Part shown: piece by piece, positions 7,061 to 26,079 of the stretch | Position numbering within the stretch: position 1 is the stretch's first letter | Layout: each line of letters starts with the position of its first letter | Virus record (IMG/VR): IMGVR_UViG_2698536454_000020 | Coordinates: 1 to 26,079 of that record | Reading direction: 5' to 3' (one strand) | DNA from: a virus | Lineage: Duplodnaviria > Heunggongvirae > Uroviricota > Caudoviricetes | DNA: 26,079 nucleotides | Notes under the pieces: generated by a model | What the model was told of the DNA's origin: nothing | The model's input: the letters and a program-made list of their open reading frames with translations, nothing else | Database searches by the model: none | Made by a program: the position numbers and the translations under genes

Positions 7061-7062
7061 AA

Positions 7063-7089
7063 ATCACCCCTTAGGGGGTGATTTTTTTA
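7063..7089 (+). terminator. Rho-independent terminator after the membrane-protein operon
   Basis: ATCACCCC-TTAG-GGGGTGAT perfect 8-bp stem followed by TTTTTTT, immediately after the stop at 7058..7060. Confidence 0.65.
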
Positions 7090-7255
7090 CATGACTTTTG
7101 ATTAGCTGACATTGTAAATCCGCATGTATCAGATGCATTGTTTTGCATGTGGAAATGGGTGTTTTCACTGCCAGCTATCGCTACATGTAGCAAAAACACG
7201 GGCTTAATAAGAAATCATTCTGCCATAAGGCATAACTTCCCCGCGTGCTCAGGTA

Positions 7256-7285
7256 TTGACGTCATAGATATGGATCTTTTTTAAT
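7256..7285 (+). promoter_or_regulatory. Candidate promoter for the TIR-like gene
   Basis: TTGACG (7256..7261), 17-18 bp spacer, TTTAAT-like -10; AAGG Shine-Dalgarno before the ATG at 7300. Confidence 0.3.
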
Positions 7286-7299
7286 CAAGGTATGGTATT

Positions 7300-8247
7300 A
7301 TGAAGATATTTATTAGTTGGTCAGGTCAGGACAGCCTGGAGATAGCAAAAGTATTACGGGATTGGATACCGAATGTTATTCAAGTAGCTGAGCCGTACGT
7401 ATCAGCGGAAGATATTGATAAAGGCACTCGCTGGGCGACTGATATATCAAAGGAACTTGATGACTCTTCTTATGGGATTATTTGCCTTACAAAAAATAAT
7501 ATTAATGCACCGTGGATAAATTTTGAGGCGGGTGCTTTAGGTAAAAAGGTTGATAAGAGCCGGGTTAGTCCTTTCTTGTTTAAAATTAAACCATCTGAGA
7601 TAACAGGCCCAATATTACAATTCCAGTATACTCGTTCGGATGATAAGAACGATATTTTGAAGTTGATGTTGTCAATAAATAATCAAGCAGGATTTTTGAC
7701 TGAAGAACGCTTAACTAAAGCTTTCGAGCAATGGTGGCCAAGTTTAGAGCGTGAGTTAGATAACATTCAAGATATTAACCCTGTAGATAAAGATTCCACT
7801 AAAAAAACAAAAGGTGATTCGACTTCTGAGATACAAAATCTTTCCAAAATTGTTGAAAGTTTGCTGGATATTAGCCGAACAAATCACCAATTATTGCGTG
7901 ATCCAGCATCATTATTGCCAGAAGAATATGTTAGCAAAATAATAAACAGGGAAGGGCGTAAAGAAACTGTTTTAAAAATTGTAGCTTCTGATTTATTATC
8001 CATGCATCATTCACTAATTCGTGTAAAAAGAAGATTTATTCGCCGTGGTATTGATGAAACATCTAGGAGCGAGTTAATTGAATCATTAAATAAAATGATA
8101 ATGGATTGTTCTAGAGTAATCGCTCACTTAGATAATTATTGTGGGGCTTCATCAAACAATATGTTCAATAGTGCGCTTAGATTGCGGACCAGAAATTTAA
8201 TTGACATGATGGATGAGGAGGATGCAGAACGGGATGAAATGGAATAA
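7300..8247 (+). CDS. TIR-like domain protein (N-terminal ~135 aa) fused to an unrecognised ~175-aa helical C-terminal domain; candidate anti-phage NADase or signal-generating protein
   Basis: N-terminus MKIFISWSGQDS and the block ICLTKNNINAPWINFEAG (W72, E76; GAG at 7525..7527) fit the bacterial TIR-like pattern (F-I-S-x-S/H start, [SA]-x-W-[CI]-x-x-E). Own promoter and terminator-bounded unit; low GC. Confidence 0.6.
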   Translation: MKIFISWSGQDSLEIAKVLRDWIPNVIQVAEPYVSAEDIDKGTRWATDISKELDDSSYGIICLTKNNINAPWINFEAGALGKKVDKSRVSPFLFKIKPSEITGPILQFQYTRSDDKNDILKLMLSINNQAGFLTEERLTKAFEQWWPSLERELDNIQDINPVDKDSTKKTKGDSTSEIQNLSKIVESLLDISRTNHQLLRDPASLLPEEYVSKIINREGRKETVLKIVASDLLSMHHSLIRVKRRFIRRGIDETSRSELIESLNKMIMDCSRVIAHLDNYCGASSNNMFNSALRLRTRNLIDMMDEEDAERDEME

Positions 8248-13004: not shown

Positions 13005-13177
13005 GAATACCTCGCCGTGATGAATACACGGCAAGGCTACTGAGTCGCGCCCCGCGATTCGCTAAGGTGCTGTTGTGTCAGTGATAAGCCATCCGGGACT
13101 GATGGCGGAGGATGCGTATCGTCGGGAAACTGATGCCGACATGTGACTCCTCTAATCACTATTCAGGACTCCTGACA
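13005..13177. promoter_or_regulatory. Divergent late-promoter region between P and O (expected activator-dependent late promoters)
   Basis: Position only: divergent P and O operons as in P2; no activator site was located with confidence. Confidence 0.3.
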
Positions 13178-14032
13178 ATGGCAAAAAAAGTCTCAAAATT
13201 CTTTCGTATCGGCGTTGAGGGTGACACCTGTGACGGGCGTGTCATCAGTGCGCAGGATATTCAGGAAATGGCCGAAACCTTTGACCCGCGAGTCTATGGT
13301 TGCCGCATTAACCTGGAACATCTGCGCGGCATCCTGCCTGACGGTATTTTTAAGCGTTATGGCGATGTGGTCGAACTGAAGGCCGAAAAGATTGACGATG
13401 ATTCGGCGCTGAAAGGCAAATGGGCGCTGTTTGCGAAAATCACCCCGACCGATGACCTTATCGCGATGAACAAGGCCGCGCAGAAGGTCTACACCTCAAT
13501 GGAAATTCAGCCGAACTTTGCCAACACCGGCAAATGTTATCTGGTGGGGCTGGCCGTCACCGATGACCCGGCAAGCCTCGGCACGGAATACCTGGAATTC
13601 TGCCGCACGGCAAAACACAACCCCCTGAACCGCTTCAAATTAAGCCCTGAAAACCTGATTTCAGTGGCAACGCCTGTTGAGCTGGAATTTGAAGACCTGC
13701 CTGAAACCGTGTTCACCGCCCTGACCGAAAAGGTGAAGTCCATTTTTGGCCGCAAACAGGCCAGCGATGATGCCCGTCTGAATGACGTGCATGAAGCGGT
13801 GACCGCTGTTGCTGAACATGTGCAGGAAAAACTGAGCGCCACTGAGCAGCGCCTCGCGGAGATGGAAACCGCCTTTTCCGCACTTAAGCAGGAGGTGACT
13901 GACAGGGCGGATGAAACCAGCCAGGCATTCACCCGCCTGAAAAACAGTCTCGACCACACCGAAAGTCTGACCCAGCAGCGCCGCAGCAAGGCCACCGGTG
14001 GTGGCGGTGACGCCCTGATGACGAACTGCTGA
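13178..14032 (+). CDS. O: Capsid scaffolding protein (P2 gpO-like), 284 aa from the ATG at 13178
   Basis: ORF track 13112..14032; internal start MAKKVSKFFRIGVEGD... matches the remembered gpO N-terminus and length. Confidence 0.85.
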   Translation: MAKKVSKFFRIGVEGDTCDGRVISAQDIQEMAETFDPRVYGCRINLEHLRGILPDGIFKRYGDVVELKAEKIDDDSALKGKWALFAKITPTDDLIAMNKAAQKVYTSMEIQPNFANTGKCYLVGLAVTDDPASLGTEYLEFCRTAKHNPLNRFKLSPENLISVATPVELEFEDLPETVFTALTEKVKSIFGRKQASDDARLNDVHEAVTAVAEHVQEKLSATEQRLAEMETAFSALKQEVTDRADETSQAFTRLKNSLDHTESLTQQRRSKATGGGGDALMTNC

Positions 14033-14090
14033 CCGGCGTCAGTCAGTCCGGGAAAACCTTCACGATTAACCCTTAATTTCAGGAAAAACT

Positions 14091-15164
14091 ATGCGCCAGG
14101 AAACCCGCTTTAAATTTAATGCTTACCTGTCCCGTGTTGCCGAACTGAACGGCATCGACGCCGGTGATGTGTCGAAAAAATTCACCGTTGAACCGTCGGT
14201 CACCCAGACCCTGATGAACACCATGCAGGAGTCCTCTGATTTTCTGACCCGCATTAATATTGTGCCGGTCAGCGAAATGAAAGGGGAAAAAATTGGTATC
14301 GGTGTCACCGGCCCCATTGCCAGCACCACCGACACCGCCGGTGGCACCGAGCGTCAGCCGAAGGACTTCTCGAAGCTGGCGTCCAACAAGTACGAATGCG
14401 ACCAGGTTAACTTCGATTTTTATATCCGCTACAAAACGCTGGACCTGTGGGCGCGTTATCAGGATTTCCAGCTCCGTATCCGTAACGCCATTATCAAACG
14501 CCAGTCCCTTGATTTCATCATGGCCGGTTTTAACGGCGTGAAGCGTGCCGAAACCTCTGACCGCAACAGCAATCCGATGTTGCAGGATGTGGCGGTCGGC
14601 TGGCTGCAGAAATACCGCAATGAAGCCCCGGCGCGTGTGATGAGCAAGGTCACTGACGAGGAAGGCCGCACCACCTCTGAGGTTATCCGCGTGGGTAAGG
14701 GCGGTGACTATGCCAGCCTTGATGCACTGGTGATGGATGCGACCAACAACCTGATTGAGCCGTGGTATCAGGAAGACCCTGACCTTGTGGTGATTGTGGG
14801 ACGTCAGCTACTGGCGGACAAGTATTTCCCCATCGTCAACAAGGAGCAGGACAACAGCGAAATGCTGGCCGCTGACGTCATCATCAGCCAGAAACGCATC
14901 GGCAACCTGCCGGCGGTACGCGTCCCGTACTTCCCGGCGGATGCGATGCTCATCACGAAGCTGGAAAACCTGTCCATCTACTACATGGATGACAGCCATC
15001 GCCGCGTGATTGAGGAAAACCCGAAACTCGACCGCGTGGAGAACTACGAGTCAATGAACATTGATTACGTGGTGGAGGACTACGCCGCCGGTTGTCTGGT
15101 GGAAAAAATTAAGGTCGGTGATTTTTCCACACCGGCTAAAGCGACCGCAGAGCCGGGAGCGTAA
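14091..15164 (+). CDS. N: Major capsid protein (P2 gpN-like), 357 aa
   Basis: 357-aa ORF in the syntenic position after O; same length as P2 gpN. Confidence 0.88.
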   Translation: MRQETRFKFNAYLSRVAELNGIDAGDVSKKFTVEPSVTQTLMNTMQESSDFLTRINIVPVSEMKGEKIGIGVTGPIASTTDTAGGTERQPKDFSKLASNKYECDQVNFDFYIRYKTLDLWARYQDFQLRIRNAIIKRQSLDFIMAGFNGVKRAETSDRNSNPMLQDVAVGWLQKYRNEAPARVMSKVTDEEGRTTSEVIRVGKGGDYASLDALVMDATNNLIEPWYQEDPDLVVIVGRQLLADKYFPIVNKEQDNSEMLAADVIISQKRIGNLPAVRVPYFPADAMLITKLENLSIYYMDDSHRRVIEENPKLDRVENYESMNIDYVVEDYAAGCLVEKIKVGDFSTPAKATAEPGA

Positions 15165-15167
15165 CCG

Positions 15168-15911
15168 ATGACGAGTCCCGCACAGCGCCACATGATGCGG
15201 GTCTCGGCAGCGATGACCGCGCAGCGGGAAGCCGCCCCGCTGCGACATGCAACTGTCTATGAGCAGATGCTGGTCAAGCTCGCCGCAGACCAGCGCACAC
15301 TGAAAGCGATTTATTCAAAAGAGCTGAAGGCCGCAAAAAAACGCGAACTGCTGCCGTTCTGGTTGCCGTGGGTGAATGGCGTGCTGGAGCAGGGCAAAGG
15401 TGCACAGGATGACATTCTGATGACGGTCATGCTGTGGCGTCTGGATACCGGCGATATTGCCGGTGCGCTGGAGATTGCCCGTTATGCCCTGAAGTACGGT
15501 CTGACCATGCCGGGTAAACACCGCCGCACCCCGCCGTACATGTTCACCGAGGAGGTGGCACTTGCGGCCATGCGCGCCCACGCTGCCGGTGAGTCTGTGG
15601 ATACCCGCCTGCTGACGGACACCCTCGAACTGACCGCCACGGCTGACATGCCTGATGAAGTGCGCGCAAAGCTGCACAAAATCACCGGTCTGTTTCTGCG
15701 TGACGGTGGTGATGCCGCCGGTGCGCTGGCGCACCTGCAACGTGCGACACAGCTCGACTGTCAGGCAGGCGTCAAAAAAGAGATTGAACGACTGGAGCGG
15801 GAGCTGAAACCGAAGCCGGAGCCGCAACCCAAAGCGGCCACCCGCACTCCGCGTAAGACCCGGAGCGTGACACCGGCAAAACGTGGACGCCCGAAAAAGA
15901 AAGCCAGTTAA
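15168..15911 (+). CDS. M: Terminase small subunit / endonuclease subunit (P2 gpM-like), 247 aa
   Basis: 247-aa ORF, same length as P2 gpM; basic C-terminal tail (KRGRPKKKAS); synteny. Confidence 0.85.
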   Translation: MTSPAQRHMMRVSAAMTAQREAAPLRHATVYEQMLVKLAADQRTLKAIYSKELKAAKKRELLPFWLPWVNGVLEQGKGAQDDILMTVMLWRLDTGDIAGALEIARYALKYGLTMPGKHRRTPPYMFTEEVALAAMRAHAAGESVDTRLLTDTLELTATADMPDEVRAKLHKITGLFLRDGGDAAGALAHLQRATQLDCQAGVKKEIERLERELKPKPEPQPKAATRTPRKTRSVTPAKRGRPKKKAS

Positions 15912-16010
15912 CAACCGAATGCGCCCCGCGCCAGGGCGGCACGCCGGTCAGTGAGGGTGAATCACCTGACACTGCACCGGCGTCCACCGCCCGACTTTTC
16001 AGAGGTAGTC

Positions 16011-16520
16011 ATGATGACGCTGATTATTCCGCGAAAGGAGGCTCCCGTGTCCGGTGAGGGTACGGTGGTCATCCCGCAACCGGCAGGCGACGAGCCGGTG
16101 ATTAAAAACACGTTCTTTTTTCCCGATATCGACCCGAAGCGCGTCCGGGAACGTATGCGCCTTGAGCAGACCGTCGCCCCCGCCCGTCTGCGTGAGGCCA
16201 TCAAGTCAGGCATGGCGGAGACGAATGCGGAGCTGTACGAGTACCGCGAACAGAAAATTGCCGCCGGTTTTACGCGTCTGGCGGACGTTCCGGCGGACGA
16301 CATCGACGGTGAAAGTATCAAAGTTTTTTACTACGAGCGCGCCGTGTGTGCGATGGCGACCGCGTCGCTTTATGAGCGTTATCGCGGCGTGGATGCCAGT
16401 GCGAAAGGAGACAAGAAGGCCGACAGCATTGACAGCACCATTGATGAACTGTGGCGGGATATGCGCTGGGCGGTGGCGCGTATCCAGGACAAGCCGCGCT
16501 GCATCGTGAGTCAAATCTGA
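16011..16520 (+). CDS. L: Head completion protein (P2 gpL-like), 169 aa from the ATG at 16011
   Basis: ORF track 15951..16520; internal start MMTLIIPRKEAP... with AGAGG Shine-Dalgarno gives the P2 gpL length. Confidence 0.82.
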   Translation: MMTLIIPRKEAPVSGEGTVVIPQPAGDEPVIKNTFFFPDIDPKRVRERMRLEQTVAPARLREAIKSGMAETNAELYEYREQKIAAGFTRLADVPADDIDGESIKVFYYERAVCAMATASLYERYRGVDASAKGDKKADSIDSTIDELWRDMRWAVARIQDKPRCIVSQI

Positions 16521-16723
16521 TGAAGACCTTTGCGCTACAGGGCGACACGCTCGACGCCATTTGTGTCCGCTATTACGGGCGCACTGAGGGCGTGGTTGAG
16601 ACCGTGCTCGCCGCAAATCCGGGACTGGCTGAACTGGGTGCGGTGCTGCCACACGGCACCGCCGTCGAACTGCCCGACGTTCAGACCGCGCCCGTGGCTG
16701 AAACTGTCAATCTGTGGGAGTAA
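16520..16723 (+). CDS. X: Tail protein X-like (67 aa)
   Basis: MKTFALQGDTLDAICVRYYG...; start overlaps the L stop (ATGA); 67 aa as in P2 gpX. Confidence 0.78.
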   Translation: MKTFALQGDTLDAICVRYYGRTEGVVETVLAANPGLAELGAVLPHGTAVELPDVQTAPVAETVNLWE

Positions 16724-16726
16724 CGC

Positions 16727-17008
16727 ATGACAGCAGAAGAAAAAAGCGTCCTGTCGCTTTTCATGATTGGGGTGCTGATTGTTGTCGGCAAGGTGCTTGC
16801 CGGTGGTGAACCCATCACCCCGCGTCTGTTTATCGGGCGCATGTTGCTCGGTGGTTTTGTCTCGATGGTTGCCGGTGTTGTTCTGGTGCAGTTTCCTGAC
16901 CTGTCACTGCCTGCGGTGTGCGGTATCGGCTCCATGCTGGGTATCGCCGGTTATCAGGTGATTGAGATTGCCATTCAGCGCCGTTTTAAGGGCAGGGGGA
17001 AACCGTAA
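16727..17008 (+). CDS. Y: Holin (P2 gpY-like), 93 aa
   Basis: 93-aa ORF with hydrophobic TM segments and a charged C-terminus (RRFKGRGKP), immediately upstream of the endolysin. Confidence 0.8.
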   Translation: MTAEEKSVLSLFMIGVLIVVGKVLAGGEPITPRLFIGRMLLGGFVSMVAGVVLVQFPDLSLPAVCGIGSMLGIAGYQVIEIAIQRRFKGRGKP

Positions 17009-17505
17009 TGCCGGTAATTAACACGCATCAGAATATCGCGGCCTTTCTCGACATGCTGGCCGTGTCCGAAGGGACGGCGAATCATCCGCTGACGAAAAAC
17101 CGGGGCTATGACGTGATAGTCACCGGACTGGACGGGAAGCCGGAAATTTTCACTGACTACAGTGACCACCCGTTCGCGCATGGCCGACCGGCGAAGGTGT
17201 TTAACCGTCGCGGTGAAAAATCCACGGCCTCCGGTCGCTATCAGCAGCTTTACCTGTTCTGGCCGCACTACCGCAAACAGCTTGCCCTGCCGGATTTCAG
17301 TCCGTTGTCACAGGACAGGCTCGCCATTCAGTTGATCCGCGAACGCGGTGCACTGGATGACATCCGGGCGGGACGCATTGAGCGCGCCATTTCACGCTGT
17401 CGCAATATCTGGGCGTCCCTGCCGGGAGCCGGTTACGGTCAGCGTGAGCATTCACTGGAAAAACTGGTCACCGTCTGGCGTACCGCTGGCGGCGTACCGG
17501 CTTAA
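17008..17505 (+). CDS. K: Endolysin (P2 gpK-like), 165 aa
   Basis: 165-aa ORF, same length as P2 gpK, between holin and lysA/lysB. Confidence 0.82.
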   Translation: MPVINTHQNIAAFLDMLAVSEGTANHPLTKNRGYDVIVTGLDGKPEIFTDYSDHPFAHGRPAKVFNRRGEKSTASGRYQQLYLFWPHYRKQLALPDFSPLSQDRLAIQLIRERGALDDIRAGRIERAISRCRNIWASLPGAGYGQREHSLEKLVTVWRTAGGVPA

Positions 17506-17519
17506 ACGGAGTAAACACC

Positions 17520-17945
17520 ATGAAGAAATTATCCCTTTCACTGATGCTGAACGTGTCGCTGGCGCTGATGCTGGCACTGTCCCTGATTTACCCGCAGAGC
17601 GTGGCCGTCAGTTTTGTCGCCACCTGGGCGATTCTGGCGACGGTTATCTGTGTGGTTGCCGGTGGTGTCGGCGTGTATGCCACGGAGTATGTGCTGGAAC
17701 GCTACGGGCGGGAGCTTCCGCCGGAATCGCTGGCCGTGAAGATTGTCACGTCGCTGTTTTTGCAGCCGGTGCCGTGGCGCAGACGGGCGGTGGCTCTGGT
17801 GGTGATGGTGGCGACGTTTATCTCGCTGGTCGCTGCCGGGTGGATTTTTACCGCGCTGATTTATCTCGTGGCGTCGGTGTTCTTCCGGCTGATACGTACG
17901 GCCTGCCGTCAGCGTTTTGAGGGGCGGGAACCATGTCAAAGCTGA
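17520..17945 (+). CDS. lysA: Lysis accessory membrane protein LysA-like, 141 aa
   Basis: 141-aa hydrophobic ORF following the endolysin; synteny with P2 lysA. Confidence 0.72.
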   Translation: MKKLSLSLMLNVSLALMLALSLIYPQSVAVSFVATWAILATVICVVAGGVGVYATEYVLERYGRELPPESLAVKIVTSLFLQPVPWRRRAVALVVMVATFISLVAAGWIFTALIYLVASVFFRLIRTACRQRFEGREPCQS

Positions 17946-18358
17946 TGATTGTGATGGTTGTGCTGTTATCGCTGGCGGTGGCGGGGCTGTTTCTGGTGAA
18001 GCATGAAAACGCCAGCCTGCGCGCCTCGCTGGACAGGGCGAACAACGTCGCCAGCGGGCAGCAGACGACCATCACCATGCTGCAAAATCAGCTTCATGTT
18101 GCCATCACCAGGGCAGACAAAAACGAGCTGGCGCAGGTGGCACTGCGTCAGGAACTGGAGAACGCCGCGAAGCGTGAAGCACAGCGCGAGAAAACCATCA
18201 CGAGGTTACTTAATGAAAACGAAGATTTTCGCCGCTGGTACGGTGCTGACCTGCCTGATGCTGTGCGCCGGTTGCACCAGCGCCCCGCCTGCACTGACGC
18301 CAGTGATTGTCCCCAACGCCTGCCCGAAAGTGAGCCTTTGCCCGATGCCGGGCAGTGA
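17933..18358 (+). CDS. lysB: LysB-like inner-membrane spanin (Rz-like), 141 aa
   Basis: N-terminal TM segment then coiled-coil-like region; synteny with P2 lysB. Confidence 0.72.
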   Translation: MSKLMIVMVVLLSLAVAGLFLVKHENASLRASLDRANNVASGQQTTITMLQNQLHVAITRADKNELAQVALRQELENAAKREAQREKTITRLLNENEDFRRWYGADLPDAVRRLHQRPACTDASDCPQRLPESEPLPDAGQ

Positions 18359-18503
18359 CCCGGAGACGAACGGCGATTTAAGTGCCGATATCCGGCAGCT
18401 TGAGAACGCGCTGGCACGCTGTGCCAGCCAGGTAAAAATGATTAAACACTGTCAGGACGAAAACGATGCTCAAACCCGACAGCCTGCGCAGGGCGCTGAC
18501 TGA
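18213..18503 (+). CDS. lysC: LysC-like outer-membrane lipoprotein spanin (Rz1-like), 96 aa, embedded out of frame in lysB
   Basis: ATG at 18213 inside ORF 18003..18503; MKTKIFAAGTVLTCLMLCAGC has a lipoprotein signal with lipobox; proline-rich mature part. Confidence 0.7.
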   Translation: MKTKIFAAGTVLTCLMLCAGCTSAPPALTPVIVPNACPKVSLCPMPGSDPETNGDLSADIRQLENALARCASQVKMIKHCQDENDAQTRQPAQGAD

Positions 18504-18933
18504 TGCCGTCACGGTGCTGAAAACTAACCCCGAGATGCTGCGGATATTCGTGGATAACGGGAGTATTGCCTCCACACTGGCGACGTCGCTGTCATTCGAA
18601 AAGCGTTACACGCTCAATGTGATTGTGACCGACTTTACCGGTGATTTTGACCTGCTCATTGTGCCGGTGCTGGCGTGGCTGCGGGAGAATCAGCCCGACA
18701 TCATGACCACCGACGCAGGCCAGAAAAAGGGCTTCACGTTTTATGCAGACATCAACAATGACAGCAGCTTTGATATCAGCATCAGCCTGATGCTGACCGA
18801 GCGCACGCTGGTCAGTGAGGTGGACGGCGCACTGCATGTGAAGAATATCCCGGAACCCACGCCGCCGGAGCCGGTCACCCGCCCGGTGGAGCTTTATATC
18901 AATGGCGAACTGGTGAGCAAGTGGGATGAATGA
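18466..18933 (+). CDS. R: Tail completion protein R-like, 155 aa
   Basis: 155-aa ORF, same length as P2 gpR; synteny. Confidence 0.8.
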   Translation: MLKPDSLRRALTDAVTVLKTNPEMLRIFVDNGSIASTLATSLSFEKRYTLNVIVTDFTGDFDLLIVPVLAWLRENQPDIMTTDAGQKKGFTFYADINNDSSFDISISLMLTERTLVSEVDGALHVKNIPEPTPPEPVTRPVELYINGELVSKWDE

Positions 18934-19378
18934 GTTTAAGCGTTTTGAAGACCGGCTGACCGGACTGATTGAATCGCTGTCACCGTCAGGGCGTCGGCGA
19001 CTGAGTGCCGAACTGGCGAAGCGCCTGCGGCAGAGTCAGCAGCGTCGGGTGATGGCACAGAAAGCCCCGGACGGCACACCCTACGTGCCACGCCAGCAGC
19101 AGAGCGCCAGAAAAAAGACTGGTCGTGTTAAGCGAAAAATGTTTGCGAAACTTATCACCAGTCGTTTTTTGCATATCCGCGCCAGCCCGGAACAGGCATC
19201 AATGGAGTTTTACGGCGGGAAGTCACCGAAAATCGCCAGTGTGCATCAGTTCGGTCTGTCGGAAGAAAACCGGAAAGACGGTAAGAAAATTGATTATCCG
19301 GCGCGTCCTCTGCTCGGCTTTACCGGTGAGGATGTGCAGATGATTGAAGAGATTATTCTGGCGCACCTCGACCGTTAG
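18926..19378 (+). CDS. S: Tail completion protein S-like, 150 aa
   Basis: 150-aa ORF, same length as P2 gpS; overlaps the R stop. Confidence 0.8.
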   Translation: MNEFKRFEDRLTGLIESLSPSGRRRLSAELAKRLRQSQQRRVMAQKAPDGTPYVPRQQQSARKKTGRVKRKMFAKLITSRFLHIRASPEQASMEFYGGKSPKIASVHQFGLSEENRKDGKKIDYPARPLLGFTGEDVQMIEEIILAHLDR

Positions 19379-19444
19379 TTGTGCCATTCCCGACACCTCA
19401 TCGTCACATTGCCGCCGGTATGACCCGGCGGCATCCTTCCCGTT

Positions 19445-20080
19445 ATGAACACTCTCGCAAATATTCAGGAACTCGCGCGCGCACTGCGCAACATGATCCG
19501 CACCGGCATTATCGTCGAAACCGACCTTAACGCCGGTCGCTGCCGTGTGCAGACTGGCGGCATGTGCACCGACTGGCTTCAGTGGCTGACCCATCGTGCC
19601 GGGCGTTCGCGCACATGGTGGGCACCTTCCGTGGGGGAACAGGTGCTGATTCTGGCCGTGGGCGGTGAACTTGACACGGCGTTTGTTCTGCCGGGGATTT
19701 ATTCCGGCGATAACCCCGCGCCGTCTGCGTCGGCGGATGCCCTGCATATCCGTTTCCCTGACGGGGCGGTGATTGAGTATGAACCCGAAACCAGTGCACT
19801 CACGGTAAGCGGAATTAAAACGGCCAGCGTGACGGCTTCTGATTCTGTTACTGCCACGGTGCCGGTGGTCATGGTGAAAGCATCAACCCGCATCACCCTG
19901 GACACACCGGAGGTGGTCTGCACCAACAGGCTGATTACCGGCACGCTGGAAGTGCAGAAGGGCGGGACGATGCGCGGCAACATTGAACACACCGGCGGTG
20001 AACTCTCATCAAACGGTAAGGTACTGCATACCCATAAACACCCCGGCGACAGCGGCGGCACAACCGGGAGTCCTCTATGA
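19445..20080 (+). CDS. V: Baseplate spike/hub protein V-like, 211 aa
   Basis: 211-aa ORF, same length as P2 gpV; starts a new operon after a 66-bp gap. Confidence 0.83.
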   Translation: MNTLANIQELARALRNMIRTGIIVETDLNAGRCRVQTGGMCTDWLQWLTHRAGRSRTWWAPSVGEQVLILAVGGELDTAFVLPGIYSGDNPAPSASADALHIRFPDGAVIEYEPETSALTVSGIKTASVTASDSVTATVPVVMVKASTRITLDTPEVVCTNRLITGTLEVQKGGTMRGNIEHTGGELSSNGKVLHTHKHPGDSGGTTGSPL

Positions 20081-20424
20081 CAGCGCGTTATCTCGGAATG
20101 AATCGCAGTGATGGCCTGACTGTCACTGACCTTGAGCATATCAGCCAGAGTATCGGCGATATCCTGCGCACACCGGTCGGCTCACGGGTGATGCGTCGTG
20201 ATTACGGCTCGTTGCTGGCGTCAATGATTGACCAGCCGCAGACCCCGGCGCTTGAGTTGCAGATTAAGGTCGCCTGTTACATGGCCGTGCTGAAATGGGA
20301 ACCCCGCGTCACCCTGTCATCCGTCACCACGGCGCGCAGTTTTGACGGGCGAATGACGGTCACGTTAACCGGTCAGCACAACGACACCGGCCAGCCACTT
20401 TCGTTAACCATCCCTGTGAGTTGA
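20077..20424 (+). CDS. W: Baseplate protein W-like, 115 aa
   Basis: 115-aa ORF; ATGA overlap with V; synteny. Confidence 0.83.
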   Translation: MTARYLGMNRSDGLTVTDLEHISQSIGDILRTPVGSRVMRRDYGSLLASMIDQPQTPALELQIKVACYMAVLKWEPRVTLSSVTTARSFDGRMTVTLTGQHNDTGQPLSLTIPVS

Positions 20425-20428
20425 AACC

Positions 20429-21337
20429 ATGCCGATTATCGACCTGAACCAGCTACCCGCACCGGATGTGGTCGAGGAGCTGGACTTTGAAACCATTCTT
20501 GCCGAACGCAAGGCGACACTGATTTCCCTTTACCCGGAAGACCAGCAGGAGGCGGTCGCCCGTACCCTGACGCTGGAATCCGAGCCTCTCGTCAAACTGC
20601 TGGAGGAAAATGCTTATCGTGAGCTTATCTGGCGTCAGCGTGTGAATGAGGCCGCACGGGCGGTGATGCTGGCTTGTGCCGCCGGTAATGACCTTGATGT
20701 GATTGGTGCCAATTTCAACACCACGCGCCTGATTATCACCCCGGCAGATGATTCGACTATCCCGCCGACACCGGCAGTGATGGAATCTGACACGGATTAT
20801 CGTCTGCGTATTCAGCAGGCGTTTGAGGGCTTAAGCGTCGCCGGGTCGGTGGGAGCCTATCAGTATCATGGTCGCAGTGCTGACGGGCGTGTCGCCGATA
20901 TCTCTGTCACCAGTCCGTCTCCGGCCTGCGTCACTATCTCCGTGCTGTCACGTGAAAATAACGGCGTCGCATCCGAAGACCTGCTGGCCGTGGTGCGTAA
21001 CGCCCTTAATGGCGAGGACGTCAGGCCGGTGGCCGACCGCGTGACCGTGCAGTCTGCCGCCATCGTTGAATACCAGATAAACGCCACGCTGTATCTTTAC
21101 CCTGGTCCCGAAAGCGAACCCATTCGCGCTGCCGCCGTGAAAAAACTGGAAGCGTATATCACGGCACAGCACCGGCTGGGGCGCGACATCCGTCTGTCTG
21201 CCATTTATGCCGCTTTGCATGTGGAAGGCGTGCAGCGTGTCGAACTGGCTGCACCGCTGGCCGACATCGTGCTCAACAGTACGCAGGCGTCTTTCTGTAC
21301 CGAATACCGCGTCGTGACCGGAGGCTCGGATGAGTGA
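20429..21337 (+). CDS. J: Baseplate protein J-like, 302 aa
   Basis: 302-aa ORF, same length as P2 gpJ; synteny. Confidence 0.85.
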   Translation: MPIIDLNQLPAPDVVEELDFETILAERKATLISLYPEDQQEAVARTLTLESEPLVKLLEENAYRELIWRQRVNEAARAVMLACAAGNDLDVIGANFNTTRLIITPADDSTIPPTPAVMESDTDYRLRIQQAFEGLSVAGSVGAYQYHGRSADGRVADISVTSPSPACVTISVLSRENNGVASEDLLAVVRNALNGEDVRPVADRVTVQSAAIVEYQINATLYLYPGPESEPIRAAAVKKLEAYITAQHRLGRDIRLSAIYAALHVEGVQRVELAAPLADIVLNSTQASFCTEYRVVTGGSDE

Positions 21338-21941
21338 TTCGCGACTGCTGCCGACCGGCTCATCGCCGCTTGAAGTCGCCGCCGCAAAAGCCTGTGCGGA
21401 AATTGAAAAAACGCCGGTCAGTATTCGTGAGCTGTGGAACCCGGATACCTGTCCGGCAAATCTGCTGCCGTGGCTGGCGTGGTCATTTTCGGTTGACCGC
21501 TGGGATGATAAGTGGCCGGAAGCGACAAAACGCGCTGTTATCCGCGATGCGTATTTCATTCACTGCCATAAGGGCACTATAGGCGCAATCCGGCGTGTGG
21601 TGGAGCCGCTCGGCTATCTGATTGAGGTGAGGGAGTGGTGGCAGCTCAACGAGGAGCCGGGGACGTTCCGCATCGTTGTTGGCGTGCTTGAGCAGGGTAT
21701 TACCGAGGAAATGTATCAGGAGCTGGAGCGCCTCGTTGCTGATGCAAAACCGGCAAGCCGCCATCTGACGGGACTGGCTATCAGTTTAAGTACAACCGGC
21801 AACATTTTTGCCGGTGCAGGATGCTATCACGGCGACGCCCTGACGGTTTATCCCTACACCCCGGAGGCCATTATTGTCGGAGGGGATTATTTCCCGGCCT
21901 CGGCCATTCATTTAATTGATAACCTGAGAGTAAACGCATGA
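21330..21941 (+). CDS. I: Baseplate/tail protein I-like, 203 aa
   Basis: ORF overlapping the J stop and the H start; synteny. Its 3' 234 bp lie inside the long inverted repeat. Confidence 0.78.
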   Translation: MSDSRLLPTGSSPLEVAAAKACAEIEKTPVSIRELWNPDTCPANLLPWLAWSFSVDRWDDKWPEATKRAVIRDAYFIHCHKGTIGAIRRVVEPLGYLIEVREWWQLNEEPGTFRIVVGVLEQGITEEMYQELERLVADAKPASRHLTGLAISLSTTGNIFAGAGCYHGDALTVYPYTPEAIIVGGDYFPASAIHLIDNLRVNA

Positions 21942-22783
21942 CAGTGAAATACTACGCCATTCTGACTAATCAGGGCGCAGCACGGCTGGCTAACGCGACG
22001 ATGCTCGGCAGTAAGCTGAATCTGACGCAAATGGCAGTTGGTGATGCGAATGGTGTCTTGCCGACACCAGACCCGGCACAGACAAAACTGATTAACCAGA
22101 AACGCATCGCGCCGCTGAATCTTCTGAGTGTTGACCCGAACAACCAGAGCCAGATTATTGCGGAGCAAATCATCCCTGAGAACGAGGGCGGATTCTGGAT
22201 CCGTGAGATTGGGCTTTATGATGATGAAGGCGTACTCATTGCGGTGGCGAACTGCCCGGAAACGTACAAACCGCAGTTGCAGGAAGGCAGTGGTCGTACC
22301 CAGACTATCCGCATGATTCTGGTTGTCACGAATACCGAAGCTATTACGCTGAAAATCGACCCGTCGGTGGTACTGGCGACCCGTAAATATGTGGATGATG
22401 AAGTCCTGGAATTAAGGCTGTATGTGGATGACCAGATGAGCAAACACATTGCCGCACAGGACCCTCATACCCAGTATGCACAGAAACATAATCCGACATT
22501 TACCGGAGAACCAAAAGCGCCGACGCCTGCCGCAGGAAATAACACCACGCGGATTGCGACCACTGCGTTTGTACAGGCCGCTATTACCGCTCTGATTAAC
22601 GGTGCGCCTGACACGCTGGACACACTGAAAGAAATTGCCGCGGCCATTAACAATGACCCGAAATTCAGCACCACCATTAACAATGCGCTGGCAGGTAAAC
22701 AACCGCTGGACAATACGCTGACTCATTTGAGCGGAAAGGATGTTGCCGGTCTTCTCGCATACCTTGGTTTGGGAGAAGGTGCT
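21708..22783. repeat. Left arm of a 1076-bp near-perfect inverted repeat (3' end of I, constant part of H, site 1)
   Basis: Reverse-complement identity with 24492..25567 (coordinates sum to 47275); confirmed by identical ORFs on opposite strands (22412..22726 - and 24549..24863 +; 21908..22168 - and 25107..25367 +). Confidence 0.85.
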
Positions 22784-23221
22784 CCAGCTATTGGCGTTCC
22801 GTTCTTCTGGCCGTCCGCTGCAATGCCAAATACTGTAATCGACAGCTGGTCCAGTATGGTGTTTTTGAAGTTCAACGGCGCGAAATTCTCTGCCACTGAT
22901 TATCCTGTGCTGGCGAAAGTATTTCCTTCGCTGGTATTACCTGAAGCCCGCGGTGATTTCATTCGTATCTGGGATGACGGGCGAGGTACAGACGGTGGTC
23001 GCGAATTATTAAGCTGGCAGGCAGCTACAAACTTTTCTCAGTTTGCCGGGAATATAGGCGGAGGTGCGGGACACGCAATTAACTTTCATGATGGCATCGC
23101 CGGAAATCAGCCAGGATTTTCACGATTTAATTTAACCAGTAACTCTGTGGGTGATGGTGTGAATTTTGTTGCTGTCAGACCGCGAAATATTGCATTTAAC
23201 TTTCTGGTGAGGGCTAAATAA
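21938..23221 (+). CDS. H: Tail fibre protein H-like, 427 aa: constant N-terminal part (to about 22765) plus variable C-terminal cassette Hv1
   Basis: ORF track; N-terminal domain typical of P2/Mu-type tail fibres; a hix/gix-like crossover site lies in frame at 22752..22777. Confidence 0.82.
   Translation: MTVKYYAILTNQGAARLANATMLGSKLNLTQMAVGDANGVLPTPDPAQTKLINQKRIAPLNLLSVDPNNQSQIIAEQIIPENEGGFWIREIGLYDDEGVLIAVANCPETYKPQLQEGSGRTQTIRMILVVTNTEAITLKIDPSVVLATRKYVDDEVLELRLYVDDQMSKHIAAQDPHTQYAQKHNPTFTGEPKAPTPAAGNNTTRIATTAFVQAAITALINGAPDTLDTLKEIAAAINNDPKFSTTINNALAGKQPLDNTLTHLSGKDVAGLLAYLGLGEGAPAIGVPFFWPSAAMPNTVIDSWSSMVFLKFNGAKFSATDYPVLAKVFPSLVLPEARGDFIRIWDDGRGTDGGRELLSWQAATNFSQFAGNIGGGAGHAINFHDGIAGNQPGFSRFNLTSNSVGDGVNFVAVRPRNIAFNFLVRAK
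22752..22777 (+). other. hix/gix-like 26-bp recombination site 1 (TTCTCGCATACCTTGGTTTGGGAGAA) inside H
   Basis: Imperfect palindrome around a central TT; resembles remembered hixL TTCTTGAAAACCAAGGTTTTTGATAA and gixR; sits exactly at the constant/variable boundary of H. Confidence 0.6.
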
Positions 23222-23814
23222 TGAAACCTGTTTTTGATGAAAATGGGCTGGCTACAGTGCCGGGCGATATGCGTTGTTTTTATTATGATGCTGAAACATC
23301 TGAGTATACGGGCTGGTCTGATGAATATATTAATACTGGCGTAAGTATGCCCGCCTGTTCCACTGGTATTGACCCGGGCGAAAACATTCCGGGGAAAGTG
23401 GCAGTATTTACGGGTAAGGAATGGAGCTATGAAGAAGACCATCGCAATGAGACTGTTTACTCAACAGAAAATGGCGCAGCTGTTACAGTGGATTATATCG
23501 GTGCCATCAAAAACGGTTATGTCACGCTTTCACCGTTAACGCCATATGATAAATGGGATGGTGAGAAATGGGTGACAGATACTGAGGCACAGCATAACGC
23601 CGCAGTAGAAGCAGCAGAAGCACAGCGCCAGTCACTGATTGATGCAGCAATGGCTTCCATTAGTCTGATTCAGCTGAAATTACAGGCCGGACGGAAACTG
23701 ACTCAGGCAGAAACAACCCGACTTAACGCCGTGCTGGATTACATTGACGCGGTGACGGCAACAGATACCAGCACCGCGCCGGATGTCATCTGGCCTGAAC
23801 TGCCGGAGGCGTAG
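23221..23814 (+). CDS. G: Tail fibre assembly protein (Tfa/gpG/Mu-U family), 197 aa
   Basis: Immediately follows H; C-terminal ...[13 protein letters not shown] motif typical of tail-fibre assembly chaperones. Confidence 0.78.
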
Positions 23815-24214
23815 GCCATTCAATATCGGGTGCTGTTGAAGTATCAACACGCATCAGCAGCACACGGTATTTCTTCCATTCGGTGAGAGTTGAAGTTTCT
23901 TCATCAGTTGCGATATCAGCATCAACAGCATCCTGACGCCAGGATATTTCACTGTCAGCTTTTTCCCGTAATTGGGATTTTTTAACTTCAGTAATAGCTA
24001 TTAATTCCTTTTTGGTCGGCTGAGGAATATCTATCAGTGCTGGTTTTCCATTCAGTGTTCCAATCTGTTTTCCTGGTGGAATATCCATAAATAACTTTTT
24101 ATGTTCTTCCTCACTGACTATTACACCATCATCAGGCCACAGACCTGATGCCTCAAATTTTTCTTTCTCCGATATGGGGAAAAAGCCATTTGCTTTAGCG
24201 CTCCATACGTACAT
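23786..24214 (-). CDS. Second, convergent tail fibre assembly protein (alternative Tfa), 142 aa
   Basis: Minus-strand ORF; C-terminus ...[20 protein letters not shown] shares the Tfa motif; 3' ends of the two tfa genes overlap at 23786..23814. Confidence 0.72.
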
Positions 24215-24511
24215 ATCAATACCCCACCGCTATAATGTCCACATTAAATCCCCCGGGACCTGCCTGCCAGATGCTGGCCCCTGTTAATGATTTTGTTTGA
24301 TGAACAACCGCCACATTTGCTGGCGATTGTGTTTCAGTTGTTACAGTACCGATATCATTCCAGTTAATTGAGATGGAATAGTTCGTTGTTGTAAACGACC
24401 GTGGGAAAGTTATGTGTCTTACATTGGTGCCAACAGGAAATCCAAGATAAACACGCTGAATTATCATTCCTCCAGGTAACATAACCCAGTTAGCACCTTC
24501 TCCAAAACCAA
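24122..24511. repeat. First copy of a 390-bp direct repeat (5' end of the minus-strand tfa gene, Hv2 cassette, half of the crossover site)
   Basis: Identical to 25569..25958 (offset 1447 bp); the copies diverge at the centre of the crossover sites. Confidence 0.85.
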
Positions 24512-25337
24512 GGTATGCGAGAAGACCGGCAACATCCTTTCCGCTCAAATGAGTCAGCGTATTGTCCAGCGGTTGTTTACCTGCCAGCGCATTGTTAATG
24601 GTGGTGCTGAATTTCGGGTCATTGTTAATGGCCGCGGCAATTTCTTTCAGTGTGTCCAGCGTGTCAGGCGCACCGTTAATCAGAGCGGTAATAGCGGCCT
24701 GTACAAACGCAGTGGTCGCAATCCGCGTGGTGTTATTTCCTGCGGCAGGCGTCGGCGCTTTTGGTTCTCCGGTAAATGTCGGATTATGTTTCTGTGCATA
24801 CTGGGTATGAGGGTCCTGTGCGGCAATGTGTTTGCTCATCTGGTCATCCACATACAGCCTTAATTCCAGGACTTCATCATCCACATATTTACGGGTCGCC
24901 AGTACCACCGACGGGTCGATTTTCAGCGTAATAGCTTCGGTATTCGTGACAACCAGAATCATGCGGATAGTCTGGGTACGACCACTGCCTTCCTGCAACT
25001 GCGGTTTGTACGTTTCCGGGCAGTTCGCCACCGCAATGAGTACGCCTTCATCATCATAAAGCCCAATCTCACGGATCCAGAATCCGCCCTCGTTCTCAGG
25101 GATGATTTGCTCCGCAATAATCTGGCTCTGGTTGTTCGGGTCAACACTCAGAAGATTCAGCGGCGCGATGCGTTTCTGGTTAATCAGTTTTGTCTGTGCC
25201 GGGTCTGGTGTCGGCAAGACACCATTCGCATCACCAACTGCCATTTGCGTCAGATTCAGCTTACTGCCGAGCATCGTCGCGTTAGCCAGCCGTGCTGCGC
25301 CCTGATTAGTCAGAATGGCGTAGTATTTCACTGTCAT
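24216..25337 (-). CDS. Alternative tail fibre gene (inverted copy of the H constant part fused to variable cassette Hv2), 373 aa
   Basis: Minus-strand ORF; the first 27x residues are identical to H, diverging right after the crossover site; the nucleotide sequence is the reverse complement of 21938..22783. Confidence 0.65.
24498..24523 (+). other. hix/gix-like recombination site 2 (TTCTCCAAAACCAAGGTATGCGAGAA), inverted relative to site 1
   Basis: Reverse complement of site 1 with one mismatch; lies at the Hv2/constant boundary. Confidence 0.6.
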
Positions 25338-25567
25338 GCGTTTACTCTCAGGTTATCAATTAAATGAATGGCCGAGGCCGGGAAATAATCCCCTCCGACA
25401 ATAATGGCCTCCGGGGTGTAGGGATAAACCGTCAGGGCGTCGCCGTGATAGCATCCTGCACCGGCAAAAATGTTGCCGGTTGTACTTAAACTGATAGCCA
25501 GTCCCGTCAGATGGCGGCTTGCCGGTTTTGCATCAGCAACGAGGCGCTCCAGCTCCTGATACATTTC
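25338..25567 (-). pseudogene. Inverted, 5'-truncated duplicate of the 3' end of gene I (last ~76 codons)
   Basis: C-terminus of minus ORF 25334..25666 is identical to the I C-terminus (MYQELERLVADAK...LRVNA); no corresponding 5' part. Confidence 0.6.
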
Positions 25568-25568
25568 A

Positions 25569-25958
25569 TACACCATCATCAGGCCACAGACCTGATGCCT
25601 CAAATTTTTCTTTCTCCGATATGGGGAAAAAGCCATTTGCTTTAGCGCTCCATACGTACATATCAATACCCCACCGCTATAATGTCCACATTAAATCCCC
25701 CGGGACCTGCCTGCCAGATGCTGGCCCCTGTTAATGATTTTGTTTGATGAACAACCGCCACATTTGCTGGCGATTGTGTTTCAGTTGTTACAGTACCGAT
25801 ATCATTCCAGTTAATTGAGATGGAATAGTTCGTTGTTGTAAACGACCGTGGGAAAGTTATGTGTCTTACATTGGTGCCAACAGGAAATCCAAGATAAACA
25901 CGCTGAATTATCATTCCTCCAGGTAACATAACCCAGTTAGCACCTTCTCCAAAACCAA
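25569..25958. repeat. Second copy of the 390-bp direct repeat
   Basis: See first copy; begins abruptly after the inverted I fragment (junction at 25568). Confidence 0.85.
25663..25944 (-). other. Duplicate Hv2 variable tail-fibre cassette (promoterless, no constant N-terminal part attached)
   Basis: C-terminal 94 aa of minus ORF 25663..26064 are identical to the Hv2 C-terminus; upstream of it (beyond site 3) the reading frame is unrelated to H. Confidence 0.6.
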
Positions 25959-25970
25959 CGTTTATGAAAA
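25945..25970 (+). other. hix/gix-like recombination site 3 (TTCTCCAAAACCAACGTTTATGAAAA), outer boundary of the invertible region
   Basis: Left half identical to site 2, right half divergent but still matching the hix consensus (..AAACC NN GGTTT../..CGTTTATGAAAA); the flanking sequence to the right is not tail-fibre sequence, as for gixR next to gin in Mu. Confidence 0.55.
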
Positions 25971-26079
25971 TGCAGAGATAAGTAAGCGTCGTCTCAGCAC
26001 CGTCTGGCAGATCCTGAAATTCCTGAGAGAATAGTGGACACCAAATATGGTGGACGCTATCCATGAAATCATTAACCGC

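What the first reader, a model, noticed from the sequence alone, without database searches (positions are those of the whole stretch)
21708..25958. Unusually long inverted duplication plus direct duplication with an abrupt junction: rearrangement or assembly chimera
The inverted repeat is 1076 bp and includes the last 234 bp of gene I and the whole constant part of H, far more than the short sites needed for inversion. Immediately after its right arm (junction 25567/25569) a 390-bp direct copy of the tfa 5' end plus Hv2 plus half a site begins, with no sequence logic at the junction. The result is a full-length second H gene (24216..25337, -) preceded by a truncated I fragment, and a second promoterless Hv2 cassette. 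Either the phage carries a genuine duplication that creates a three-site, multi-cassette shufflon, or the contig merges both orientations of an invertible segment from a mixed population.
Basis: seen in the sequence. Interest (0 to 1): 0.55.

Follow-up and report, generated by a model that had tools for sequence, protein, structure and literature searches.

The report
Scaffolding artefact at invertible tail-fibre segment
The long inverted and direct duplications are not a real rearrangement: a draft assembly stitched both orientations of an ordinary flip-flop tail-fibre switch of a P2-like prophage into one contig, and the "abrupt junction" is a one-letter gap (N) in the original record.

Summary
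The repeats are in the window as described. The inverted repeat is 21708-22783 / 24492-25567 (1075 of 1076 bases match). The direct repeat is 24122-24511 = 25569-25958 (390 nt, 100%). The structure is an assembly product, not a real feature.

- **Source.** The window is the last 26 kb of draft contig CYCS01000026.1 (GCA_001283365.1). That contig ends 98 nt inside an IS66-family element.
- **Junction.** Over the 14 kb I could fetch, the record differs from the window at one base. Window 25568 'A' is 'N' in the record, so the junction is a scaffold gap.
- **Real biology.** A Gin/Pin-type invertible segment (22766-24509) carries two alternative H C-termini and their assembly genes, bounded by 26-bp sites.
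- **Middle site.** Site 24498-24523 is the exact recombinant of the two outer sites. Both orientations were therefore present in the sequenced DNA.
- **Reference for orientation B.** Window 22764-25567 is 100% identical to the reverse complement of a 99.99%-identical prophage fixed in the other orientation. That prophage has one I, one H and an intact invertase.
- **Junction elsewhere.** None of 5426 complete E. coli genomes spans it.

The true prophage is most likely window 1-24511 joined to 25959-26079. The underlying switch is already known. Interest is low.

The parts
21330..21941 (+). P2 gene I (baseplate/tail protein I), the single real copy
   Evidence: ORF of 203 aa. PF09684 Tail_P2_I on the identical gene in L004/L006.
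21938..23221 (+). Tail-fibre gene H in orientation A: constant part (to about 22765) fused to variable C-terminus Hv1 (427 aa)
   Evidence: ORF. PF12571 Phage_tail_fib. The Hc-Hv1 junction is spanned in 73 complete E. coli genomes.
22752..22777 (+). Left crossover site: TTCTCGCATACC TT GGTTTGGGAGAA (12-2-12)
   Evidence: The same half-site composition is seen in the orientation-A genome L001.
22766..24509 (.). The real invertible segment: Hv1, tfa1 (23221-23814 +), tfa2 (23786-24214 -) and Hv2 (24216-24497 -, continuing into the site)
   Evidence: ORFs. PF02413 Caudo_TAP on both tfa genes. The segment is found in both orientations in other genomes.
24498..24523 (-). Recombinant site: Hc-side half of the left site plus Hv2-side half of the right site (TTCTCGCATACC TT GGTTTTGGAGAA). 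It exists only in orientation-B molecules.
   Evidence: It is identical to the Hc-Hv2 site of the orientation-B prophage L004.
24512..25567 (-). Extension into orientation-B sequence: a second, spurious copy of the H constant part and the last 234 nt of gene I. Together with Hv2 it gives the 373-aa H ORF at 24216-25337 (-).
   Evidence: Window 22764-25567 is 100.000% identical to the reverse complement of L004 9771-12574. It is an exact inverted copy of 21708-22765.
25568..25568 (.). Scaffold gap: 'N' in CYCS01000026.1, rendered as 'A' in the window
   Evidence: It is the only difference between L006 (source record) and the last 14142 nt of the window.
25569..25958 (-). Redundant second copy of 24122-24511 (first 31 codons of tfa2, Hv2, and the inner half-site plus core). 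It is the start of the second scaffolded piece.
   Evidence: 390 nt, 100% identical.
25945..25970 (-). Right crossover site: TTTTCATAAACG TT GGTTTTGGAGAA (read on the - strand)
   Evidence: The same outer half sits next to the invertase in L001, L002 and L004.
25982..26079 (+). Left end of an IS66-family (ISEc22-like) element. The contig ends 98 nt inside it.
   Evidence: The end of L006 is the end of the 52362-nt record.

Best explanation
The window is the end of a short-read draft contig of an E. coli P2-like prophage. The prophage carries an ordinary Gin/Pin-type tail-fibre switch.

**The switch.** A 1.74-kb segment (22766-24509) lies between two inverted 26-bp sites. It holds two alternative C-terminal parts of tail-fibre protein H, each with its own assembly gene. 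A serine invertase flips the segment, so that Hv1 or Hv2 is fused to the single constant part of H.

**How the artefact arose.** The sequenced culture contained both orientations.
1. At the right-hand site, sequence from orientation-B molecules was appended to an orientation-A contig. That walked back into the H constant part and gene I for 1056 nt (24512-25567).
2. The true right neighbour is a short piece consisting of the end of Hv2, the right site and the IS end. It was scaffolded behind the first piece with a one-N gap.
3. That second piece had been extended 390 nt back into the segment.

The 1076-nt inverted repeat, the 390-nt direct repeat, the second H gene, the truncated I and the second Hv2 cassette are all by-products.

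**True sequence.** In orientation A it is window 1-24511 joined directly to 25959-26079, then the IS, and presumably the invertase gene.

**Shown versus inferred.**
- Shown: the N, the exact copies, the recombinant site, the colinearity with real A and B genomes, and the contig end inside an IS.
- Inferred: that a greedy scaffolder or gap-filler (SSPACE/GapFiller-type) produced the extensions, and that the invertase lies beyond the IS.
For: 1. Source and junction. L006 is the NCBI record GCA_001283365.1 / CYCS01000026.1, positions 38221-52362 of 52362. It equals the last 14142 nt of the window except that window 25568 'A' is 'N'.
2. Repeats. The direct repeat is 390/390 identical. The inverted repeat is 1075/1076 identical, with its one mismatch inside the crossover site.
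3. Sites. The left site is TTCTCGCATACC-TT-GGTTTGGGAGAA. The right site is TTTTCATAAACG-TT-GGTTTTGGAGAA. The middle site is TTCTCGCATACC-TT-GGTTTTGGAGAA, the left half of one plus the right half of the other. That is the product of exchange at the central TT. Only these three sites occur in the window, and none lies near 21708, 24122 or 25568.
4. Colinearity. L004 (GCA_025255385.1) is the same prophage: 1 mismatch in 10846 nt. It is fixed in orientation B with one I, one 373-aa H, tfa2, inverted tfa1, Hv1 and an intact PF00239/PF02796 invertase. Window 22764-25567 is 100.000% identical to its reverse complement. Orientation A with a single Hc and an adjacent recombinase is seen in HB-Coli0. 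Orientation B is seen in NMBU-W12E19.
5. Absence elsewhere. Of 5426 complete E. coli genomes, none covers at least 80% of the 4780-nt region or of a 301-nt query across the junction. All 705 genomes with a match stop at the junction.
6. Contig end. The contig ends 98 nt inside an IS66-family element. The assembler could not bridge repeats, so 'resolved' exact repeats of 1076 and 390 nt are not credible.
7. Literature. Co-existing orientations of P2-like prophage tail-fibre segments in clonal E. coli cultures are documented (PMC4272514). SSPACE and GapFiller are described by their users as greedy tools that can make false joins. Joins leave N gaps, which are then extended from both edges over many iterations (PMC5320598 and PMC3446322).
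Against: - No reads were available, so the absence of molecules spanning 25568 is inferred, not observed.
- A single N could in principle be an ambiguous base call inside truly contiguous sequence. That would require it to fall exactly on the breakpoint.
- I could not establish which assembler or scaffolder made this assembly. A literature search for the accession found nothing.
- I cannot explain why the extensions stop at exactly 21708 and 24122.
Confidence: 0.92

Rival explanations
1. The strain really carries the structure on one molecule: an inverted duplication of I'-Hc to the right of the segment plus a direct duplication of tfa2'-Hv2-site. This would give a three-site, multi-cassette shufflon with two H genes.
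For: The sequence as given contains three site-like sequences and two full-length H ORFs. Real three-site tail-fibre shufflons do exist in P2-like prophages of E. coli (PMC4272514).
Against: - The two blocks are separated by an N in the source record, so contiguity was never asserted.
- The copies are 100% identical, and the extra cassette is not a new cassette.
- One molecule would have to hold two parental sites and one recombinant site, which simple inversion cannot produce.
- No complete genome, including a 99.99%-identical prophage, has this structure.
- A short-read assembly that breaks at an IS could not have resolved such repeats.
Confidence: 0.03
2. Part of the population carries a real head-to-head (palindromic) product of invertase-mediated exchange between two sister copies in opposite orientation: L-segment-L'. 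The assembler captured this rather than simple inversion.
For: The contiguous part of the contig (to 25567) has exactly the L-segment-L' form, with a recombinant site at the joint.
Against: - From established knowledge of Gin/Hin-type invertases, they act on inverted sites in the same supercoiled molecule with an enhancer and strongly disfavour intermolecular exchange.
- The product would be an inverted chromosome dimer that cannot be resolved.
- The same L-segment-L' reading arises trivially from mixing reads of orientations A and B, both of which exist as normal genomes.
Confidence: 0.02
3. The inverted copy comes from library or sequencing chimeras (fold-back artefacts), not from a biologically inverted subpopulation.
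For: Inverted chimeras are a known library artefact (general knowledge). I have no read data.
Against: - The joint lies exactly at the 2-bp core of the crossover site.
- It carries the G-to-T half-site swap that the invertase reaction predicts.
- It is identical to the site in a genome fixed in orientation B. A random fold-back would not land there.
Confidence: 0.02

Closest known systems
Serine-invertase tail-fibre switches: Mu G segment/Gin, P1 C segment/Cin, e14 P segment/Pin
   Same: - A constant N-terminal tail-fibre part lies outside the segment.
- Two alternative C-terminal parts, each with a cognate assembly gene, lie head-to-head inside it.
- There are inverted 26-bp sites with a 2-bp core.
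- In close relatives a PF00239/PF02796 recombinase gene sits next to one site.
- From memory, the inner half-site GGTTTTGGAGAA resembles the gix half GGTTTTGGATAA. I did not test this here.
   Different: The host element is a P2-like prophage, with the invertase placed between the segment and the sheath gene. In this contig the invertase is not present, because an IS66-family element follows the right site and the contig ends in it.
Invertible tail-fibre loci of P2-like prophages in E. coli (Goldberg et al. 2014, PMC4272514)
   Same: It is the same kind of element. That paper reports a two-variant P2-like locus whose two orientations co-exist in clonal cultures. Such a mixture is the condition that produced this artefact.
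   Different: That paper also describes a true three-IR locus with four variants and three alternative C-termini. Here the apparent third site and extra cassette are redundant copies across a gap, and the constant part is duplicated.
False joins and extensions by greedy scaffolders and gap-fillers (SSPACE/GapFiller, as used in the pipeline of Page et al. 2016, PMC5320598)
   Same: - An N sits at the join.
- Sequence has been extended from both edges of the gap, and the extensions do not merge.
- The anomaly lies at a contig end beside a repeat.
- The pipeline feeds the gap-filler only read pairs that do not map as proper pairs. That would enrich for reads from the minority orientation.
   Different: I could not establish that this assembly was made with those tools. 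That a single N marks an unclosed or negative gap is my recollection of their behaviour, not something tested here.

Membership tests
Gin/Cin/Pin/Hin-type invertible segment (serine DNA invertase switch) | Two about 26-bp crossover sites in inverted orientation, two 12-bp half-sites around a 2-bp core, flanking the segment | tested here: met
   Sites at 22752-22777 (+) and 25945-25970 (-), both 12-TT-12. No other matches in the window apart from the recombinant copy. 0 expected by chance.
Gin/Cin/Pin/Hin-type invertible segment (serine DNA invertase switch) | Serine recombinase gene (resolvase/invertase catalytic domain plus HTH) adjacent to the segment | tested here: inconclusive
   Not in the window, because the contig ends in an IS 11 nt past the right site. 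It is present directly after the same site in the 99.99%-identical prophage L004 (PF00239 + PF02796) and in L001 and L002.
Gin/Cin/Pin/Hin-type invertible segment (serine DNA invertase switch) | Both orientations occur, with reciprocal exchange of half-sites at the core | tested here: met
   Inner halves always travel with Hv1 (GGTTTGGGAGAA) or Hv2 (GGTTTTGGAGAA). Outer halves stay with Hc or the invertase side. This holds in the window and in L001, L002 and L004. The Hc-Hv1 junction is spanned in 73 complete genomes and Hc-Hv2 in 19.
Gin/Cin/Pin/Hin-type invertible segment (serine DNA invertase switch) | Alternative C-terminal tail-fibre parts with cognate assembly genes inside, and the constant part outside | tested here: met
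   H of 427 aa (Hc+Hv1) and 373 aa (Hc+Hv2), both PF12571. Two PF02413 tfa genes lie head-to-head.
Gin/Cin/Pin/Hin-type invertible segment (serine DNA invertase switch) | Fis-bound recombinational enhancer in the 5' part of the invertase gene | not testable with these tools
   The invertase gene is absent from the window, and there is no tool for Fis or enhancer function.
Multi-site tail-fibre shufflon (three or more sites, e.g. the EPEC P2-like three-IR locus, or p15B Min) | Three or more crossover sites on one contiguous molecule | tested here: not met
   The third site lies beyond an N gap in the source record. No other assembly has the arrangement.
Multi-site tail-fibre shufflon (three or more sites, e.g. 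the EPEC P2-like three-IR locus, or p15B Min) | Each extra site precedes a distinct alternative cassette, and there is one constant part | tested here: not met
   The 'extra' cassette is a 390-nt, 100% copy of Hv2 with its site. The constant part and the end of gene I are duplicated exactly.
Assembly/scaffolding artefact at an invertible segment | Gap character at the join in the deposited record | tested here: met
   'N' at the position of window 25568. It is the only difference over 14142 nt.
Assembly/scaffolding artefact at an invertible segment | Each side of the anomaly is colinear with a real single-orientation genome, and the duplicated parts are exact | tested here: met
   Window 11938-22783 matches L004 at 99.991%. 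Window 22764-25567 matches the reverse complement of L004 at 100%. Window 19408-24511 plus 25569-25979 is colinear with L001.
Assembly/scaffolding artefact at an invertible segment | Read-level evidence: single-copy depth over the 'duplicated' parts and no reads across the join | not testable with these tools
   No access to the raw reads of GCA_001283365.1.

The most novel reading that the evidence does not exclude
The isolate truly carries, on one molecule, I-Hc-[segment]-Hc'-I' followed by a second Hv2 cassette and site. This palindromic duplication would have been made by exchange between two copies of the prophage in opposite orientation. It would give two simultaneously expressed H genes (Hv1 and Hv2) and a three-site switch.
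Probability: 0.03. Interest if true: 0.5.

Novelty: not a real feature. Interest (0 to 1): 0.06.

Why it matters
Biologically it adds nothing new. The underlying element is a well-known kind of phage host-range switch, already described for P2-like prophages of E. coli.

Its practical value is as a caution.
- Invertible segments in mixed populations can generate long, perfect, hairpin-like inverted repeats, duplicated genes and chimeric ORFs at the ends of draft contigs.
- Replacing N by a real base in a processing step hides the tell-tale gap.
- Gene catalogues built from such contigs will contain spurious proteins. Here these are a 110-aa chimeric ORF across the gap, a 133-aa Hv2 ORF that reads into the IS end, and a duplicated H.

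One useful positive inference follows. The presence of the exact recombinant site shows that inversion was occurring in the sequenced culture, even though an IS sits between the right site and the place where the invertase gene should be.

Tried and rejected
- **Exact 38-nt junction searches.** I searched IMG/VR, the GTDB species genomes and JGI metagenomes and found 0 hits. In hindsight these could not have found the source record, because it has N where the window has A. They show only that no other record has the junction with an A. The mismatch-tolerant megablast against E. coli complete genomes is the meaningful negative.
- **Look-up of the 133-aa ORF 25663-26064 (-).** It is not on record, because in the source the gene runs off the contig end. 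Look-ups of the two H proteins did find the source contig.
- **Literature search for the accession.** It found nothing, so the assembly method remains unknown.
- **Look-up of the integrase.** I hoped to read more of the source contig and look for further N gaps. It returned other genomes only.
- **Site-specific or homology-driven event at 25568.** Rejected. There is no site-like sequence at 21708, 24122 or 25568, and no shared bases at the join.
- **Node boundaries.** I considered that the 98 nt of IS at the contig end and the block ends at 21708 and 24122 reflect de Bruijn node boundaries (k about 99) shared with a second prophage. I could not test this, so it is left as speculation.
Full report

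Yes, as sequence. The repeat finder reports an inverted repeat with arms 21708-22783 and 24492-25567 (1076 nt). It also reports a direct repeat starting at 24122 and 25569.

A base-by-base check gives more detail.
- The inverted repeat is 1075/1076 complementary, with a single mismatch at 22771.
- The direct repeat is 24122-24511 = 25569-25958, 390 nt and 100% identical.

| Gene | Coordinates | Strand | Notes |
|---|---|---|---|
| I | 21330-21941 | + | 203 aa |
| H | 21938-23221 | + | 427 aa |
| tfa1 | 23221-23814 | + | assembly gene |
| tfa2 | 23786-24214 | - | assembly gene |
| second H | 24216-25337 | - | 373 aa, full length |
| I fragment | 25334-25567 | - | last 234 nt of gene I |

**2. 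What the region is**

The window is a P2-like prophage. It has an integrase at 1-1011, gene A at 3457-5778 (PF05840), and the Q/P/O/N/M/L late genes through V, W, J, I and H.

Complete E. coli genomes carry the same tail-fibre module in two forms.
- In HB-Coli0 the order is I, H (constant part plus Hv1), tfa1, inverted tfa2, inverted Hv2 cassette, recombinase, sheath.
- In NMBU-W12E19 it is I, H of 373 aa (constant part plus Hv2), tfa2, inverted tfa1, inverted Hv1 remnant, recombinase, sheath.

Each form has one gene I and one H constant part.

This is a classical serine-invertase tail-fibre switch. The segment is bounded by 26-bp sites of the form 12-TT-12.
- The left site is at 22752-22777: TTCTCGCATACC TT GGTTTGGGAGAA.
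- The right site is at 25945-25970, read on the minus strand: TTTTCATAAACG TT GGTTTTGGAGAA.

Across the window and loci L001, L002 and L004 the half-sites behave consistently. The inner half always travels with its cassette, GGTTTGGGAGAA with Hv1 and GGTTTTGGAGAA with Hv2. The outer halves stay with Hc or with the invertase side. That is what exchange at the central dinucleotide predicts.

The Hc-Hv1 junction is spanned in 73 complete genomes and the Hc-Hv2 junction in 19.

**3. The middle site is a recombinant**

The site at 24498-24523 (minus strand) reads TTCTCGCATACC TT GGTTTTGGAGAA. That is the Hc-side half of the left site joined to the Hv2-side half of the right site. This accounts for the one mismatch in the '1076-nt' repeat.

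The window therefore contains both sites of orientation A and one site that exists only in orientation B. A single molecule cannot reach that state by inversion. A mixture of A and B molecules explains it at once.

**4. The junction is a gap**

Looking up the two H proteins by exact sequence found the source. It is NCBI assembly GCA_001283365.1, contig CYCS01000026.1, 52362 nt. The locus ends at the contig end.

The fetched 14142 nt of the record are identical to the window's last 14142 nt except at one position. Window 25568 'A' is 'N' in the record...tgatacatttc n tacaccatcat....

So the 'abrupt junction with no sequence logic' is where two pieces were scaffolded. The 'A' is a placeholder introduced when the window was prepared.

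**5. Each piece matches a normal genome**

L004 (GCA_025255385.1) is the same prophage, with 1 mismatch in 10846 nt over window 11938-22783. It is fixed in orientation B, with one I, one H and an intact invertase (PF00239 + PF02796) immediately after the site.

Window 22764-25567 is 100.000% identical to the reverse complement of L004 9771-12574. In other words, the stretch from the left core dinucleotide to the gap is simply orientation B read backwards.

Window 19408-24511 and 25569-25979 are colinear with the orientation-A genome HB-Coli0. In one search the best matches span 3231 nt of the record for 4678 nt of query, which is exactly the window minus the 1447-nt redundancy.

**6. Nobody else has the structure**

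Of 5426 complete E. coli genomes, none covers at least 80% of the 4780-nt region. None covers at least 80% of a 301-nt query centred on the junction. The 705 genomes with a match align only up to the junction.

No record of the phage collection covers the region either.

**7. Context of the contig end**

The last 98 nt of the window (25982-26079) are the left end of an IS66-family, ISEc22-like element. The contig stops there.

An assembler that breaks at an IS copy cannot have genuinely resolved perfect repeats of 1076 and 390 nt. Their presence points to greedy extension.

A plausible route is as follows. It is inferred, not shown.
1. The contig broke at the right-hand site, because the assembly graph forks there. 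The path leads to the right flank in A and back into Hc in B.
2. A scaffolder joined the contig to the short right-flank piece.
3. A gap-filler then extended both edges. The left edge followed orientation-B reads into Hc and gene I. The right edge followed orientation-A reads back into Hv2.
4. The two extensions could never merge, so the gap stayed open as one N.

The published Sanger improvement pipeline behaves in just this way (PMC5320598). It uses SSPACE joins with N gaps and 120 GapFiller iterations. It uses only reads that are not proper pairs, which would enrich for the minority orientation. GapFiller extends from both edges and closes a gap only if the extensions merge (PMC3446322).

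I could not establish that this assembly used those tools.

**8. Mechanism of the real element**

From the family's established biology, the invertase binds the two inverted sites. With a Fis-bound enhancer it exchanges strands at the 2-bp core and flips the 1.74-kb segment (22766-24509).

The H promoter and constant part stay fixed. After inversion the other C-terminal receptor-binding part and its assembly gene are expressed, which changes host range.

- Shown here: the sites, the half-site exchange, both orientations in nature, and the alternative H and tfa reading frames.
- Inferred: enhancer dependence and the host-range effect.

Co-existing orientations in clonal E. coli cultures have been shown for P2-like prophages (PMC4272514).

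**9. Comparison with known systems and novelty**

The real element works like, and by the tested criteria belongs with, the Gin/Cin/Pin-type switches. Only the invertase gene itself could not be seen in this contig.

It is not a multi-site shufflon.

The residual chance that the structure is physically real is about 3-5%.

**10. Verdict**

- The 'assembly chimera from a mixed population' alternative is supported, and the 'genuine duplication or three-site shufflon' alternative is rejected.
- Interest is 0.06.
- The true sequence in orientation A is most likely window 1-24511 joined to 25959-26079.

Noticed in passing
window 25982-26079 (and L003 7100-9540; L004 12590-12645): An IS66-family (ISEc22-like) element starts 11 nt after the right inversion site. 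That is 44 nt upstream of where the invertase ATG lies in the near-identical prophage L004, so it would separate the invertase gene from its upstream region. In the complete genomes examined (for example M217), ISEc22 sits 77 nt further in, after codon 11 of the invertase. 87 complete genomes align to this query with that pattern, and none of the listed top hits has the IS at the window's position. Inversion was nevertheless occurring in the sequenced culture, as the recombinant site shows. The invertase is therefore still expressed or is supplied by another prophage.
   Followed up: partly
window 6108-8247 (+): Three adjacent ORFs match the PADLOC models 2TM-TIR (E 2e-58), 1TM-TIR (3e-75) and TIR-TM (2e-118). 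The third also matches Pfam TIR_2. This looks like a known 2TM-1TM-TIR anti-phage cassette in the variable cargo region between gene A and the portal gene. The same slot holds other cargo in prophages with the identical integrase: HipA-like/HIRAN, a DEAD helicase, HATPase plus methylase, AAA_13, or Fic.
   Followed up: partly
window 25334-25666 (-), 25663-26064 (-), 25569-25661 (-): The artefact creates spurious ORFs. One is a 110-aa ORF that reads across the N gap into the gene I fragment. Another is a 133-aa ORF in which the Hv2 cassette reads through the right site into the IS end. The third is a 31-codon tfa2 fragment that ends in a stop formed at the placeholder base. The source record's gene calls include an 89-aa and a partial 138-aa product here.
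   Followed up: yes
window 25568: The window shows 'A' where the public record has 'N'. If ambiguous bases were replaced by A when the window was prepared, other windows may hide scaffold gaps in the same way.
   Followed up: yes
window 1-1011 (-); L007-L011 11198-13916: The window starts exactly at the stop codon of the P2-type integrase, which suggests a left boundary trimmed at a gene edge. In other genomes the identical integrase lies next to cpxP and cpxRA-like genes (LTXXQ, response regulator, CpxA_peri kinase), which indicates the attachment locus.
   Followed up: no
L001 4637-5920 (HB-Coli0): In this complete genome the H gene of the orientation-A prophage is annotated as two partial pseudogene pieces with a 360-nt unannotated stretch between them, although megablast aligns it to the window without a gap. 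This is probably an annotation or frameshift issue in that record.
   Followed up: no
NZ_CP030281.1 (E308) 4543285-4543465 and 2991123-2991303: One complete genome carries both the Hc-Hv1 and the Hc-Hv2 junctions, but in two different prophages 1.5 Mb apart. Several related P2-like prophages per genome are common (median 2 matching places per genome, up to 14). Such repeats further confound short-read assembly of this module.
   Followed up: no
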